In this document: one piece after another, positions 15,097 to 17,828 of the stretch
Layout of the letters: each line of letters begins with the position of its first letter
How positions within the stretch are numbered: position 1 is the stretch's first letter
NCBI GenBank assembly: GCA_018267215.1
Contig: JAFDYX010000024.1
Span: forward strand, 73,240-105,239
Direction: 5' to 3'
DNA length: 32,000 bases
DNA from: Bacteroidota bacterium
GTDB taxonomy: Bacteria; Bacteroidota; Bacteroidia; Cytophagales; Cyclobacteriaceae
Notes under the pieces: model-generated
What the model saw: the letters and a program-made list of their open reading frames with translations, nothing else
Database searches by the model: none
What the model was told of the DNA's origin: nothing
Translations under genes and position numbers: made by a program

Positions 15097-15849
15097 TCAA
15101 CTCGCCCGGTTTGCCTCCTGCTTTTTTAAAGAAAACCAAAACAGCAAAAGCAAAGTAATCAAGGCCGGCAGCAGCAACACCACTAACCCCAGCGAAGCTT
15201 TTTTTTCTCCGGTAGCGGGGTTATACGTGAAGCAGGAGAACAACATGTTTTTTCTGGGCAGCGGATACGACAACACAAAATCGTTATTGATTTCTTTTAT
15301 CATTACCAATAAATCGCGCGGCTCTCGGATGCCTGTCAATTTTTTTACGATGTATCCGTTTTCGTTGACGCCCACCAGCAGCGCTTCGTGGTCATACTGC
15401 CTTTTGGTACTATCCCATACAGGATGAAAACCTACCGAAGTGTTGAGTTCATTGATTTGCCGCGTGGTGGCGAAAAGCCATTGGCTATTGGCAGTAAGGC
15501 CATATCGCTGTGCCAGCGCTACCATATCAGCAAGGCTGTCGGCAGAATCAAAACTTACTACCAGCACCCTGAAATTTATTTTGGAACTCAGTGCCTTGAT
15601 GTTTTCATTCAGGCGCAACAAGAAAGGGCTGCAGATGCCGGAGCAGCGGGTAAATATAAAAGCAATCATTACGGGCGATTGACCATACACTTCAGACAGC
15701 CTGAAACGCCCCTGCGCAGTAGCCAGCTCTACATCAGAAATTTTGGTGTAGAGCCGGCTCTCTTCCGTCAGGCTGTAGTCGCCCGGTTTAGAAAAAGACG
15801 AGGCTACGCAGATTGTAATCAGTATGAAGGTGAGAACACCTTGAAGCAT
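15097..15849 (-). CDS. senC: SCO1/SenC-family thioredoxin-fold copper chaperone with C-terminal TM anchor
   Basis: 250 aa. Signal/anchor MLQGVLTFILITICVASS. FIFTRCSGICSP motif (C69-x3-C73). Downstream DHEALLVGVNENGYIV His block. C-terminal helix LGLVVLLLPALITLLLLFWF. The start overlaps the subunit I stop by 31 nt. Confidence 0.8.
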   Translation of the reverse strand: MLQGVLTFILITICVASSFSKPGDYSLTEESRLYTKISDVELATAQGRFRLSEVYGQSPVMIAFIFTRCSGICSPFLLRLNENIKALSSKINFRVLVVSFDSADSLADMVALAQRYGLTANSQWLFATTRQINELNTSVGFHPVWDSTKRQYDHEALLVGVNENGYIVKKLTGIREPRDLLVMIKEINNDFVLSYPLPRKNMLFSCFTYNPATGEKKASLGLVVLLLPALITLLLLFWFSLKKQEANRAS

Positions 15850-17264
15850 TTTTTTACGATATCAAAAAACATCCATAATATGACAACAAGATAAATGCAG
15901 GCAAACCAAGCTCCTGCCGATGCCAGCAGAGCGGCAGATGTAAACTCTTGCGGATATACCGAATACCTTCTGGGCACAGAGTAAGCACCGGCAAAATAAA
16001 ACATCAGCACAAAACCAAAACCACCTATCAGCAGCAACACAATTTTAAGGCTGTATGATTTTGTTTCGTTTTGGTTGCCCACAAATTCGTTAGCAGCCCA
16101 GTTAAAAAATGCCAAGCTGAACAACACGTTGCCCATGGCATTGTAGGTATGAAAATGGGCAGGCACCCAAAGTGTGTTGTGCAGGAAAATGTTGTTAGAC
16201 ACCGTAGAGTCAATAAGCGCACCCACTCCGCCAATCAGCCAGCCCACCACACCGAGGAAAAAGAGAATATTGGTAAGCGACCATTTGATCGGATTTTTGA
16301 AAACGAGTACCATCACACTAAAGGCGGTAACTGCCGCTGCCGGCAAGCTGGCAAAATAAGAAGCCAGTTGCCCAATCATCTGGAAGCCGACAGGCTGCAC
16401 AAAGTCCATATACAAATGGTGGAAGAAGGCAGTAAGGACAAATACCATGGTGCAGTTCCAACCTAAGGCCACATACCAAGTTGTTTTAAATTTAGGACGA
16501 CCGCTTACTTCGGGCATCAGTTCATAGAGCGTAGCCAGCCCCAAGTACAACGACTCGTTGGCCAGCGTATGCCCGAAAAAGTAGGTGAGGTTTTTCATCA
16601 ACAGCGGATCGTTGACAAACGACCCGGACGAAAAATATTCTGCAAAAAAGAGAACCAGCAAGACCACAGCCGCAAGCAGGCAAACGATAATGCCGATTAA
16701 CGATACGGTGGTGATCAATATAAAAGGAGGCGTTTCAACTGCTACATCATGTTTTGTAGTCAGATGTTGCCAGGCAAACGTATGGCGAAGAGAATATTTT
16801 TTTAAGATCTGGAGCATCATGCCCACAGCCCACACAAACCACCCGATGCCCAACACGCCCAGGCCTAACAGAAATACAGGAGTAGCCCACTTTTCCCAGG
16901 CAACATAAAAAGGTAAAGGGTACAAAAATGTCCAGGCGGCATGGAAGTGTCCGATAAATGTGGTAACCCACAGCATCACGACACCTACCACTGTTAAGAT
17001 GAAAGCAAAAACATTTAACGAAGTGGAAACCGGCACATAGCGGGCTAACAGGTAGTTAACGGCTACCATACCGGCCACCGCCCAAATGCCAATCATGGTT
17101 ACTCCGTGTGTGGTCAGCAAAGAGTAAAATTTGGCAGGATCCAAATTGATATTGGCACCCTGATTGAAGCGCATGGTTATCCCGAAAGCAATGGCAAGGA
17201 CAAACAATGCCAAAATGGTGATAATCCAGGCAGAAGTAATTTTCTTTAAAGATAGTGTTGTCAT
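15819..17264 (-). CDS. Heme-copper oxidase superfamily subunit I, B-family-like but lacking the active-site Tyr (sNOR-like candidate NO reductase)
   Basis: 481 aa, polytopic. Six canonical His: H53 (TTHGVTMI), H232 (FFGHTLANE), H282-H283 (FFHHLY), H370/H372 (VPAHFHTY). The position 4 residues after H232 is Asn236 (AAC, 16557-16559 on the minus strand) rather than Tyr, followed by Glu237. Confidence 0.85.
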   Translation of the reverse strand: MTTLSLKKITSAWIITILALFVLAIAFGITMRFNQGANINLDPAKFYSLLTTHGVTMIGIWAVAGMVAVNYLLARYVPVSTSLNVFAFILTVVGVVMLWVTTFIGHFHAAWTFLYPLPFYVAWEKWATPVFLLGLGVLGIGWFVWAVGMMLQILKKYSLRHTFAWQHLTTKHDVAVETPPFILITTVSLIGIIVCLLAAVVLLVLFFAEYFSSGSFVNDPLLMKNLTYFFGHTLANESLYLGLATLYELMPEVSGRPKFKTTWYVALGWNCTMVFVLTAFFHHLYMDFVQPVGFQMIGQLASYFASLPAAAVTAFSVMVLVFKNPIKWSLTNILFFLGVVGWLIGGVGALIDSTVSNNIFLHNTLWVPAHFHTYNAMGNVLFSLAFFNWAANEFVGNQNETKSYSLKIVLLLIGGFGFVLMFYFAGAYSVPRRYSVYPQEFTSAALLASAGAWFACIYLVVILWMFFDIVKKCFKVFSPSY

Positions 17265-17273
17265 AACCTCGCT

Positions 17274-17828
17274 TTATTTTACGGTGAAAGTTGTTCTCAT
17301 AAATGAATGGGCGGCCCCACAAAATTCAAGGCACAGAATATTGTAAGTTCCCGGTTCGGTAAACTCCCAACGCAGGCGGTTAACATAGCCGGGCATGGCT
17401 TGCGTTTGTGTTACTAACTCAGCCCGCTCGTTGTAGATACCAAAGCCATGGTTCACATCCAGACTTGTTACTCTAAACTCCACCGGTTGGCCAGCGGGCA
17501 ATTCGATTGCTTCTGTACTTACGGGATTTTGAGGATCGATGGCACTGGAAGAAAGTGTAAAGCTATATTGCTTAGCAGCCACATATACTACCTTCGAAGG
17601 ATTTTCGCCCGTAAATAAAAAGTAGGGCGATTTGGGGATAGTGACTAGCAACAAAATAATCATCACTACTGCCAACGCAGTAAAAAAGAAAAATCTTTTT
17701 TTTGTGGGGTTACTCACCCCGCCACCATCGGCCGCTTGCCGCGATGATAGAAAGAAGTAGTAAAACAAACCGGCAATAGCTATTGCCGATACAAGGAACA
17801 GGGCTAAAACAAATTCATGCGCTTTCAT
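17274..17828 (-). CDS. Heme-copper oxidase subunit II-like cupredoxin protein with a complete CuA motif
   Basis: 184 aa with two N-terminal TM helices. Motif H127 (DVNHGFG) ... C166-L-E-F-C170-G-A-A-H174-S-F-M177, i.e. H..CxExCx3Hx2M. It ends 9 nt upstream of subunit I. Confidence 0.85.
   Translation of the reverse strand: MKAHEFVLALFLVSAIAIAGLFYYFFLSSRQAADGGGVSNPTKKRFFFFTALAVVMIILLLVTIPKSPYFLFTGENPSKVVYVAAKQYSFTLSSSAIDPQNPVSTEAIELPAGQPVEFRVTSLDVNHGFGIYNERAELVTQTQAMPGYVNRLRWEFTEPGTYNILCLEFCGAAHSFMRTTFTVK

What the first reader, a model, noticed from the sequence alone, without database searches (positions are those of the whole stretch)
15097..17828. B-family-like heme-copper oxidase lacking the cross-link tyrosine: sNOR-type nitric oxide reductase candidate
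Three tightly packed minus-strand genes form the cluster.
- A two-TM cupredoxin with a full CuA site (H127...C166xExC170x3H174x2M177).
- A subunit I with all six canonical histidines (H53, H232, H282/H283, H370/H372).
- A SCO1/SenC CxxxC copper chaperone overlapping the subunit I stop by 31 nt.

Subunit I is collinear with ba3-type blocks (GHPIVY, FHH, HNTAWVPGHFH). However, the Tyr four residues after the first CuB histidine, which is cross-linked and essential in A- and B-family O2 reductases, is Asn236, followed by Glu237 (GHTLANE). I verified these codons directly at 16557-16571.

Loss of that Tyr together with a nearby carboxylate is characteristic of NO-reducing members of the superfamily. 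The gene set of subunit I, CuA subunit II and senC matches the norSY-senC cluster proposed as sNOR in ammonia oxidisers. As far as I know this enzyme class has not been characterised biochemically. In an otherwise aerobic-looking Bacteroidota context it would indicate NO detoxification or partial denitrification.
Basis: partly seen in the sequence, partly recalled or inferred. Interest (0 to 1): 0.7.

Follow-up and report, generated by a model that had tools for sequence, protein, structure and literature searches.

The report
sNOR-type nitric oxide reductase gene cluster
Three adjacent genes in a Bacteroidota genome encode a heme-copper enzyme of the proposed but still untested "sNOR" nitric-oxide-reductase family, so it is a new member of a known kind; it belongs to a sub-branch with an extra conserved glutamate beside the active site.

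Summary
Three minus-strand genes are present:
- subunit II with a full CuA site (17274-17828);
- subunit I with all six histidines and Asn236 at the cross-link tyrosine position (15819-17264);
- a SCO-like CxxxC protein overlapping subunit I by 31 nt (15097-15849).

The sNOR reading is largely supported. Asn at that site is the published sNOR marker. In a bootstrapped NJ tree the protein groups (92%) with literature-named sNORs (Ruegeria pomeroyi, Methylomirabilis oxyfera) and a Cytobacillus homologue of the Bacillus 'type II' enzyme. Tyr-containing oxidases are excluded. It also has the sNOR build: 12 helices, a two-helix CuA subunit and a linked SCO gene.

Two corrections:
- Glu237 is not a family hallmark. 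It is invariant only in a sub-branch (Bacteroidota, Ignavibacteriota and a few others) and hydrophobic in all other relatives, including the named sNORs.
- The ammonia-oxidiser enzyme itself could not be retrieved for comparison.

NO reduction remains an inference, because no sNOR had been characterised as of 2026. Some related loci add support: they sit next to Rrf2 regulators, RIC/hemerythrin iron-sulfur repair genes and one NirK-like gene. The window has none of these. The protein is already in NCBI, named as a cbb3-type oxidase.

The parts
17274..17828 (-). Subunit II: two N-terminal transmembrane helices plus a cupredoxin domain with a complete CuA site (H127, C166, E168, C170, H174, M177).
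   Evidence: ORF and residues. Pfam COX2 at 8.8e-9 and NCBIfam CoxB at 5e-26. TM helices at 6-24 and 46-64, and all CuA ligands at least 90% conserved in 39 sub-branch homologues.
15819..17264 (-). Subunit I (481 aa, 12 TM helices), the catalytic heme-copper subunit. It has six canonical His and Asn236 in place of the cross-link Tyr. Glu237 is specific to the sub-branch. K-channel-like residues are Y247, E248, T261, T313 and S316.
   Evidence: for the ORF, family match and residues. AlphaFold2 model with pLDDT 90.8 and 12 helices. Mapping to ba3. Conservation. Phylogeny.
16554..16571 (-). Codons for H232-T-L-A-N236-E237: the first CuB/FeB histidine, the Asn replacing the cross-link Tyr, and the sub-branch-specific Glu.
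   Evidence: Codons listed. Both residues invariant in 120 of 120 closest homologues.
15097..15849 (-). Divergent SCO1/SenC-like thioredoxin-fold protein (250 aa). It has an N-terminal signal or anchor, C69xxxC73 plus H154 (the SCO copper ligands), a conserved C-terminal motif S205-C206-F-x-Y-x-P-x-T-G, and a C-terminal TM helix at 219-237. It overlaps the end of subunit I by 31 nt.
   Evidence: Pfam SCO1-SenC at 4.8e-5. A family HMM hits canonical SCO proteins at 1e-9 to 2e-11, and conserved residues and TM helices are listed. The overlap is conserved in 34 of 35 related loci, most often 31 nt.

Best explanation
The cluster encodes a two-subunit, CuA-containing heme-copper oxidoreductase of the proposed sNOR family, plus its copper-insertion factor.

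Proposed mechanism, inferred from the family and from the characterised relatives bNOR and eNOR:
1. A periplasmic one-electron donor reduces CuA in subunit II.
2. Electrons pass to the low-spin heme (ligands H53 and H372).
3. They then reach the binuclear centre, made of the high-spin heme on H370 and a CuB or FeB ion on H232, H282 and H283.
4. There, two NO are reduced to N2O and water.

This two-electron reaction does not need the His-Tyr cofactor, which is absent because the position is Asn236. Protons probably arrive through a modified K-channel-like path (Y247, E248, T261, T313, S316). In this sub-branch the buried Glu237 and Tyr240 may form the upper end of that path. The SCO-like protein, translationally coupled to subunit I, loads or reduces the CuA site.

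Physiologically the most likely role is NO detoxification or a stand-alone NO-to-N2O step, not part of a full denitrification operon.

Shown here: the gene anatomy, the active-site residues, the family placement and the conservation. Inferred: the substrate, the identity of the non-heme metal, the electron donor and the proton path.
For: - Gene anatomy and ligands.
- Asn at the Tyr position is the published diagnostic for sNOR and CuANOR (PMC8756737 Table A4; PMC3475470).
- All 53 Asn-type sequences form one clade with 92% bootstrap. The clade includes Ruegeria pomeroyi, Methylomirabilis oxyfera, Cytobacillus and Thermomicrobium homologues and excludes 9 Tyr-containing oxidase-type representatives.
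- The R. pomeroyi locus reads Rrf2 (best NCBIfam match NsrR), subunit II, subunit I, SCO, orf1, formate/nitrite transporter, cytochrome c.
- The build matches the Bacillus 'type II' enzyme: 12 TM helices in subunit I and two in subunit II (PMC3475470).
- ba3 S309 is replaced by Ala, and a Glu (E248) sits next to the K-channel Tyr. This agrees with the description of the sNOR channel in PMC11214002.
- Murali et al. state that sNOR shares its active site with the characterised bNOR (PMC11214002).
- In 40 sub-branch loci the gene order II, I, SCO-like is kept (39 loci with subunit II, 35 with SCO-like). Eight have an Rrf2 regulator, 9 have DUF2249/RIC-hemerythrin genes (two of them directly upstream), and one has a NirK-like gene.
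Against: - No sNOR has been purified or assayed (PMC11214002, PMC13592168), so NO reduction is inferred for the whole family.
- The window holds no nir, nos, nor-accessory or NO-sensing genes within 32 kb.
- Most sub-branch loci (about 30 of 40) also lack NO-related neighbours.
- The Bacteroidota Rrf2 proteins cannot be assigned to NsrR.
- The tree is neighbour-joining only. It lacks reference sequences of bNOR, eNOR, gNOR, nNOR and of the Nitrosomonas enzyme (searches failed to retrieve one).
- Tyr240, conserved in Asn-type sequences but not in Tyr-type ones, could in principle supply a redox-active tyrosine.
Confidence: 0.62

Rival explanations
1. It is a terminal oxidase that still reduces O2, for example a low-turnover or high-affinity enzyme. 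It would use a non-cross-linked tyrosine (Tyr240, two turns below His232) or only metal-derived electrons in place of the His-Tyr cofactor.
For: - Tyr240 is conserved in 49 of 53 Asn-type sequences and is Phe or Leu in Tyr-type relatives.
- A K-channel-like set of residues is retained.
- The overall fold is that of A- and B-family oxidases, with TM-scores of 0.79-0.86.
- The window shows no denitrification context.
- C-family oxidases show that the tyrosine can come from another position (established knowledge).
Against: - Every characterised O2-reducing HCO has the cross-linked Tyr, and the families lacking it that have been tested (cNOR, qNOR, bNOR, eNOR) are NO reductases (PMC11214002).
- A residue at i+8 on the same helix is unlikely to reach His232 for a cross-link (helix geometry, inference).
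- No Tyr occupies the C-family position six residues before H282; that residue is V276 (sequence).
- The clade excludes all Tyr-type sequences.
Confidence: 0.1
2. It acts on another small molecule, or it scavenges or senses rather than respires. Examples are N2O, peroxide or peroxynitrite, or NO binding without turnover. In that case NO reduction would not be its physiological role.
For: - Recurrent neighbours are stress-type genes rather than nir or nos: RIC, DUF2249, AhpD-like CMD, AhpC and DUF488.
- The family is uncharacterised.
- A cNOR-related HCO family has been proposed as an N2O reductase (PMC11214002).
Against: - No precedent exists for such chemistry in CuA-containing HCOs.
- The shared active site with bNOR argues for NO reduction (PMC11214002).
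- RIC and Rrf2 neighbours are typical of NO stress specifically (established knowledge of YtfE/ScdA and NsrR).
Confidence: 0.13
3. In this sub-branch, Glu237 with Asn236 re-creates a cNOR-like 3-His plus carboxylate site that binds FeB. Together with sub-branch-specific polar residues it forms a new proton path. This would make the sub-branch a functionally distinct, possibly electrogenic NOR rather than a typical sNOR.
For: - E237 is invariant in 120 of 120 closest proteins and in all loci L001-L042, and is absent from 162 other Asn-type relatives.
- The sub-branch has 94% bootstrap support.
- Accompanying sub-branch-specific polar residues lie in membrane helices: E252, N357, N375, N379. S316 replaces Gly at the ba3 T315 position.
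Against: - Position i+5 points away from the i+4 direction on a helix, so metal ligation is uncertain.
- I could not obtain coordinates to measure distances.
- No metal analysis is available.
- The change could be structural or lineage drift fixed early in the sub-branch.
Confidence: 0.15

Closest known systems
sNOR (norSY-senC-orf1) family proposed by Stein et al. 2007, Hemp & Gennis 2008 and Murali et al. 2024. Members named in the literature include Ruegeria (Silicibacter) pomeroyi, Ca. Methylomirabilis oxyfera Damo_0801-0802 and the Bacillus azotoformans / Geobacillus 'type II' enzyme.
   Same: - Six His and Asn at the cross-link Tyr site.
- A CuA subunit II with two TM helices and a 12-TM subunit I of about 480-500 aa.
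- An adjacent SCO/SenC-type gene.
- ba3 S309 replaced, with a Glu in the K-channel region.
- Monophyletic with these members, 33-39% identity.
   Different: - A nested sub-branch with invariant Glu237 (hydrophobic elsewhere) and about 20 further sub-branch-specific residues.
- No orf1-type membrane gene.
- The SCO-like protein is divergent and has a conserved C-terminal Cys motif and a TM anchor.
- No linked Rrf2 regulator or nitrite transporter in this window, unlike R. pomeroyi.
bNOR (qCuANOR) of Bacillus azotoformans, biochemically characterised and electrogenic.
   Same: Asn at the Tyr site and a CuA subunit. [quoted passage not shown]
   Different: By the published description, bNOR subunit I is about 568 aa with 13 TM helices, its subunit II has one TM helix, it has a small third subunit, and it is restricted to Bacillales. 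The protein here is 481 aa with 12 TM helices, has a two-TM subunit II, and is from Bacteroidota. The two families are said to be convergent rather than sister groups. No bNOR sequence was available to me for a direct comparison.
B-family O2 reductase (Thermus thermophilus ba3).
   Same: - Collinear conserved blocks.
- H233, H282, H283, H384 and H386 align with H232, H282, H283, H370 and H372.
- K-channel residues Y248, T312 and T315 correspond to Y247, T313 and S316.
- A CuA subunit II.
   Different: - Y237 becomes N236, Y244 becomes L243 and S309 becomes A309.
- The protein is about 80 residues shorter, with 12 rather than 13 TM helices.
- Sequence similarity to ba3 (E about 1e-4) is weaker than to A-family COX1 (E about 4e-12).
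cNOR and qNOR.
   Same: They lack the cross-link Tyr and have a carboxylate close to the non-heme metal.
   Different: In cNOR and qNOR the Glu sits at the Tyr position itself and ligates FeB. They have no CuA subunit; the partner is cytochrome c or a fused quinol domain. [quoted passage not shown] Here the Glu is one residue further along, and only in this sub-branch.

Membership tests
sNOR | Heme-copper subunit I with all six canonical histidines. | tested here: met
   H53, H232, H282, H283, H370 and H372. Five of them align with ba3 ligands. Pfam COX1 at 6.9e-51.
sNOR | Asn at the position of the cross-linked Tyr (Hemp & Gennis 2008, as tabulated in PMC8756737 Table A4). | tested here: met
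   N236 aligns with bovine Y244 and ba3 Y237. It is invariant in all 53 family sequences examined.
sNOR | CuA-containing cupredoxin subunit II encoded next to subunit I. | tested here: met
   ORF at 17274-17828 with H127, C166, E168, C170, H174 and M177. The ligands are conserved in 39 homologues.
sNOR | Groups phylogenetically with named sNORs, apart from O2 reductases and other NOR families. | tested here: inconclusive
   In the NJ tree the Asn-type clade has 92% bootstrap, contains the R. pomeroyi, M. oxyfera, Cytobacillus and T. roseum homologues, and excludes Tyr-type representatives. However, no bNOR, eNOR, gNOR, nNOR or Nitrosomonas reference sequences could be obtained, and only a distance method was used.
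sNOR | Linked senC/SCO gene (norSY-senC-orf1 cluster). | tested here: met
   SCO-like ORF at 15097-15849 with CxxxC and H154. It is present in 35 of 40 sub-branch loci.
sNOR | Fourth gene orf1, a multi-TM membrane protein, as in ammonia oxidisers and R. pomeroyi. | tested here: not met
   The gene downstream of the SCO-like ORF is a soluble DUF488 protein. R. pomeroyi has orf1. Published definitions treat orf1 as cluster context rather than as a feature of the enzyme.
sNOR | Modified K-channel region: ba3 S309 missing and a conserved Glu elsewhere (PMC11214002). | tested here: inconclusive
   A309 aligns with ba3 S309. E248 lies next to Y247 (ba3 Y248) and is conserved in 15 of 15 sub-branch sequences and 17 of 38 other Asn-type sequences. 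The paper does not name the Glu in text available to me.
sNOR | NO reductase activity. | not testable with these tools
   No member of the family has been assayed (PMC11214002, PMC13592168).
bNOR (qCuANOR) | A subunit I of about 568 aa with 13 TM helices, a one-TM subunit II, a small third subunit, and restriction to Bacillales (PMC3475470, PMC11214002). | tested here: not met
   481 aa with 12 helices. Subunit II has two TM helices. The source is a Bacteroidota MAG.
B-family (or A-family) O2 reductase | Cross-linked His-Tyr cofactor on helix VI. | tested here: not met
   Asn236 occupies the Tyr position.
cNOR / qNOR | Glu at the Tyr position ligating FeB, no CuA subunit, C-family affinity. 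| tested here: not met
   Asn at that position, a CuA subunit present, and C-family CcoN used as a distant outgroup.
eNOR / gNOR | eNOR: Gln at the Tyr position. gNOR: one CuB His replaced by Asp and a subunit II lacking CuA (PMC8756737 Table A4, PMC11214002). | tested here: not met
   Asn rather than Gln, all three CuB His present, and CuA ligands complete.

The most novel reading that the evidence does not exclude
The Bacteroidota/Ignavibacteriota 'Asn-Glu' sub-branch may be a functionally distinct NOR subfamily. A buried glutamate next to the active-site Asn would act with sub-branch-specific polar residues on helices VI, IX and X and a more complete K-channel set. This would give either a cNOR-like carboxylate-assisted FeB site or a new proton path. 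The result would be an energy-conserving NO reductase that is widespread in Bacteroidota and currently annotated as a cbb3 oxidase.
Probability: 0.15. Interest if true: 0.6.

Novelty: new member of a known kind. Interest (0 to 1): 0.4.

Why it matters
sNOR-type enzymes are counted as N2O sources in metagenomic surveys, yet none has been assayed, and NCBI names the members seen here cbb3-type oxidases. The Bacteroidota sub-branch is large: the 120 closest database clusters (at least 64% identity) all carry it, and the named ones are nearly all Bacteroidota MAGs. It also has at least one cultured carrier, Gelidibacter japonicus. That makes it a practical entry point for testing whether sNORs really reduce NO. 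The conserved Glu237 gives a specific residue to mutate. For this particular window, however, the finding is one more member of a family already described in the literature.

Tried and rejected
1. Retrieving the Nitrosomonas NorS sequence as an anchor failed. A profile search with 14 distant family members listed mainly unnamed metagenomic proteins, many 660-700 aa long, whose few organism names were Actinobacteria-type MAGs. A search with the R. pomeroyi enzyme returned only unnamed or alphaproteobacterial relatives of at least 66% identity. The genome scan kept only the 80 best loci, all at least 41% identical, which implies that ammonia-oxidiser enzymes are more distant.\n2. The supplementary datasets of Murali et al. 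(alignments, residue tables) are not held. The exact sNOR residue definitions therefore had to be taken from secondary sources.\n3. Fold comparison with the PDB does not separate the families. A-family COX1 scores TM 0.83-0.86 and ba3 0.79-0.81, and no NOR-type structure is closer.\n4. The Tyr-containing 'outgroup' representatives are not all clearly B-family. P0186 matches ba3 best, whereas P0199 matches A-family best. I therefore call them Tyr-type oxidases.\n5. Promoter and terminator scans around the cluster were at chance level.\n6. Model coordinates are not returned by the tools, so I could not measure distances from E237, Y240 or D352 to the metal site.\n7. I rejected a C-family-style compensating Tyr. 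The residue six positions before H282 is Val. Tyr285 after the HH pair is also found in Tyr-type oxidases, so it is not a replacement.\n8. I rejected bNOR, eNOR, gNOR, cNOR and qNOR on their defining residues or architecture (see the membership table).
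Full report
**1. The observation**

- ORF 17274-17828 encodes a 184-aa protein. It has two hydrophobic N-terminal helices (residues 6-24 and 46-64) and a cupredoxin domain (Pfam COX2 8.8e-9, NCBIfam CoxB 5e-26). It carries the full CuA ligand set H127, C166, E168, C170, H174 and M177.
- Nine bases downstream, ORF 15819-17264 encodes a 481-aa heme-copper subunit I (Pfam COX1 6.9e-51). Histidines lie at 53, 232, 282, 283, 370 and 372, and the sequence G231-H-T-L-A-N236-E237 is present. The Asn codon AAC is at 16557-16559.
- ORF 15097-15849 overlaps the end of subunit I by 31 nt and encodes a 250-aa protein with C69-S-G-I-C73.

HMMER alignments to solved structures put Asn236 on the cross-linked Tyr244 of mammalian COX1. 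A MAFFT alignment with the T. thermophilus ba3 fragment printed puts it on ba3 Tyr237. The same alignment pairs H232, H282, H283, H370 and H372 with ba3 H233, H282, H283, H384 and H386.

**2. Source and abundance**

An identical subunit I is deposited in NCBI as 'MAG: cbb3-type cytochrome c oxidase subunit I [Bacteroidetes bacterium]'. It is encoded, with the same neighbours, on contig JAFDYW010000001 of assembly GCA_018267235.1 and on contigs from other sequencing runs. The 120 closest clusters in a database of 5.8 billion proteins are 64-80% identical. Where they are named, they come from Saprospiraceae, Chitinophagales, Cyclobacteriaceae, Flavobacteriales (Gelidibacter japonicus, Lutibacter) and similar groups. 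The gene is therefore common in Bacteroidota, and the 'cbb3-type' label is a generic annotation.

**3. Which family**

A full HMMER scan of 1.84 billion cluster representatives found only 485 significant relatives.

- All close full-length representatives share G-H-x-x-x-N, that is Asn at the Tyr site.
- After them come sequences with G-H-P-[VI]-V-Y. These are Tyr-containing oxidase types. One matches ba3 best and another matches A-family enzymes best.
- A table modified from Hemp & Gennis 2008 gives the residue at this site for each family. O2 reductases have Tyr, cNOR and qNOR have Glu, sNOR has Asn, eNOR has Gln, gNOR has Asp and CuANOR (bNOR) has Asn (PMC8756737, Table A4).
- Heylen & Keltjens describe two Asn-type clusters in Bacillus azotoformans. 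Type I (bNOR) has a subunit I of about 568 aa with 13 TM helices and a one-TM subunit II. Type II has a subunit I of about 493 aa with 12 TM helices, a two-TM subunit II and a linked senC (PMC3475470).
- The window's enzyme has the type II build. The AlphaFold2 model (pLDDT 90.8, pTM 0.91) has 12 transmembrane helices, and subunit II has two.

**4. Named anchors**

- One representative (P0128, E 8e-82, 39% identity) shares its 90% cluster with a protein from Ca. Methylomirabilis oxyfera. The single sNOR of that organism is Damo_0801-0802 (PMC6094997).
- Another representative (P0144, E 1.6e-66) shares its cluster with 493-aa Cytobacillus proteins. This length matches the Bacillus type II enzyme.
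- A tblastn search of plasmids found the Ruegeria (Silicibacter) pomeroyi DSS-3 megaplasmid (35% identity, E 1e-54). Silicibacter is listed among sNOR carriers in PMC8756737 Table A4.
- The R. pomeroyi locus reads Rrf2 regulator (divergent), subunit II, subunit I, SCO, a 189-aa hypothetical protein (its sequence is largely hydrophobic), formate/nitrite transporter, cytochrome c. This is the norSY-senC-orf1 arrangement. The best NCBIfam match of the Rrf2 protein is NsrR.

I built a neighbour-joining tree from 63 sequences and 470 columns with 100 bootstraps, rooted on R. pomeroyi CcoN.

- All 53 Asn-type sequences, including these anchors, form one clade with 92% support that excludes the nine Tyr-type representatives.
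- The window's protein sits in a nested clade with 94% support.

I could not obtain the Nitrosomonas NorS sequence, nor bNOR, eNOR, gNOR or nNOR references. The phylogenetic criterion is therefore met only in part.

**5. Glu237 is a sub-branch feature, not a family feature**

- E237 is invariant in the 120 closest proteins.
- It is present in every genome locus that is at least 48% identical (L001-L042). These are Bacteroidota, Ignavibacteriota and single Verrucomicrobiales, Acidobacteria and Deltaproteobacteria MAGs.
- In the 162 other Asn-type relatives compared, chosen as those lacking Glu at this position, the residue is mostly Leu or Ile. The four named anchors follow suit. R. pomeroyi has N-A and M. 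oxyfera has N-L. Cytobacillus has N-S and T. roseum has N-L.
- E237 aligns with ba3 Phe238.

In cNOR and qNOR the Glu is at the Tyr position itself.

The sub-branch has further specific residues: T56, I60, W99, H108, Q166, H167, E252, W263, Y264, N332, N357, N375, N379, W389, Y458 and C473. Ser316 replaces the Gly of other sNOR-like proteins at the position of ba3 Thr315.

**6. Proton path and other conserved residues**

Mapping to ba3 gives these equivalences:

| This protein | ba3 |
|---|---|
| Y247 | Y248 |
| T261 | S261 |
| T313 | T312 |
| S316 | T315 |
| A309 | S309 |
| L243 | Y244 |

Glu248 lies next to Y247. It is conserved in all 15 sub-branch sequences and in 17 of 38 other Asn-type sequences. 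This fits the published statement that sNOR keeps K-channel-region residues, lacks S309 and has a conserved Glu elsewhere (PMC11214002). I cannot be sure E248 is the Glu they mean.

Tyr240 is conserved in 49 of 53 Asn-type sequences and is Phe or Leu in Tyr-type relatives. Asp352 is invariant in all 53 and corresponds to ba3 Asn366. Both are family-specific, and their roles are unknown.

**7. The SCO-like gene**

The Pfam match is marginal. However, an HMM of 33 orthologues hits canonical SCO proteins at 1e-9 to 2e-11, and the SCO copper ligands are conserved (C69, C73, H154). The family also has a conserved C-terminal motif (S205-C206-F-x-Y209-x-P211-x-T213-G214) and a C-terminal TM helix that canonical SCO proteins lack. 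In five related loci a canonical SCO gene lies upstream in addition.

The overlap with subunit I is conserved in 34 of 35 loci, most often 31 nt. This suggests translational coupling. No orf1-type membrane gene follows; the next gene is a DUF488 protein.

**8. Genomic context**

The 32-kb window holds no nir, nos or other nor genes and no Rrf2 regulator. Its genes include a peptidase, porins, a Kup transporter with a two-component system, a beta-galactosidase, MreB and cystathionine-beta-synthase-like enzymes.

Across 40 sub-branch loci the counts are as follows:

| Feature | Loci out of 40 |
|---|---|
| Subunit II present | 39 |
| SCO-like gene present | 35 |
| Rrf2 regulator within 7 kb (directly upstream of subunit II in L013 and L041) | 8 |
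| DUF2249 genes, including RIC-type proteins (ScdA_N + hemerythrin + DUF2249 repeats) directly upstream in L005 and L013 | 9 |
| DUF488 gene | 11 |
| NirK-like gene (L023) | 1 |

RIC proteins and Rrf2 regulators are classic NO-stress genes (established knowledge of YtfE/ScdA and NsrR). They support an NO-related role for the sub-branch, but only in a minority of loci and not in this window.

**9. Mechanism and confidence**

The best-supported reading is a CuA-dependent NO reductase. Electrons flow from CuA to the low-spin heme and then to the binuclear centre. The reaction is 2 NO + 2 e- + 2 H+ giving N2O + H2O. The SCO-like protein matures CuA.

- Membership in the sNOR family as used in the literature: about 0.85.
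- NO reduction as the physiological activity: about 0.6. The reason for the lower figure is that no sNOR has been assayed (PMC11214002; still stated in a 2026 paper, PMC13592168).

Rival readings are an atypical O2 reductase using Tyr240 (0.1), another substrate or a non-respiratory role (0.13), and a functionally distinct Asn-Glu subfamily (0.15; this is a refinement rather than a contradiction).

**10. Novelty**

The family, its diagnostic Asn, its CuA subunit and its senC linkage are all published, and the protein itself is in public databases. This is a new member of a known but experimentally untested kind. I did not find the sub-branch-specific Glu237 described in the texts available to me. 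It is the one element that might repay follow-up.

Noticed in passing
window 15819-17264 (subunit I residues 56, 60, 99, 108, 166, 167, 237, 252, 263, 264, 332, 357, 375, 379, 389, 458, 473): Besides Glu237, 16 more residues are at least 95% conserved in the 120 closest homologues and occur in at most 5% of 162 other Asn-type relatives. They include polar residues inside membrane helices (E252, N357, N375, N379) and two loop histidines (H108, H167). Their spatial arrangement could not be examined.
   Followed up: partly
window 16209-16211 (subunit I Asp352) and 16545-16547 (Tyr240): Asp352 is invariant in all 53 Asn-type sequences but is Asn, Leu, Thr or Gln in Tyr-type oxidases (ba3 N366). 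Tyr240 is conserved in 49 of 53 Asn-type sequences but is Phe or Leu in Tyr-type ones. Both are family-specific residues of unknown role near the catalytic helices.
   Followed up: partly
window 14409-14963 (-): A DUF488 protein lies directly downstream of the cluster. DUF488-family genes recur within 7 kb in 11 of 40 related loci. The reason for this association is unknown.
   Followed up: partly
L013:1392-6261, L008:402-4229, L041:3214-6159 (related loci): Directly upstream of the oxidase genes in some relatives lies a conserved block. Its order is RIC or DUF2249 protein, DUF1858-DUF2249 protein, a 425-431-aa membrane protein with only a weak match to the C-terminal half of COX1 (E 7e-9) that keeps several invariant His, a DUF59 Fe-S assembly protein, and an Rrf2 regulator. 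The truncated COX1-like protein has no family assignment.
   Followed up: partly
L044:218-2602, L045:6047-8431, L046, L051 (related loci); P0129, P0130, P0376, P0408: Other Asn-type relatives show different architectures. One type has an N-terminal extension of about 320 aa with no Pfam match, no CuA motif and no adjacent subunit II gene; these are mechanical ORF calls. Actinobacteria-type forms are 660-684 aa. Others carry a C-terminal cytochrome c fusion.
   Followed up: partly
window 23446-23528 (+): A tRNA-Leu(CAA) lies inside the mechanically called ORF 23349-23834. Only the part of that ORF after the tRNA (residues 77-147) matches a GIY-YIG nuclease domain, so the real gene probably starts downstream of the tRNA.
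   Followed up: no
window 8133-11159 (+): A 1008-aa ORF combines an APH-type phosphotransferase domain, a Peptidase_M23 domain and a class-III aminotransferase domain. This is an unusual three-domain fusion.
   Followed up: no
window 2797-7987 (-): A DUF4118-HisKA-HATPase sensor kinase and an OmpR-type response regulator sit next to a Kup-type K+ transporter and a BBP2 porin. This looks like a KdpD/E-like pair placed beside kup rather than beside kdpFABC.
   Followed up: no
P0001 and homologues (database annotation): NCBI names this protein, and the NCBI-named sNOR-type homologues listed, 'cbb3-type cytochrome c oxidase subunit I'. The enzyme has a CuA subunit and is not C-family, so automated surveys based on product names will misclassify it.
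   Followed up: yes
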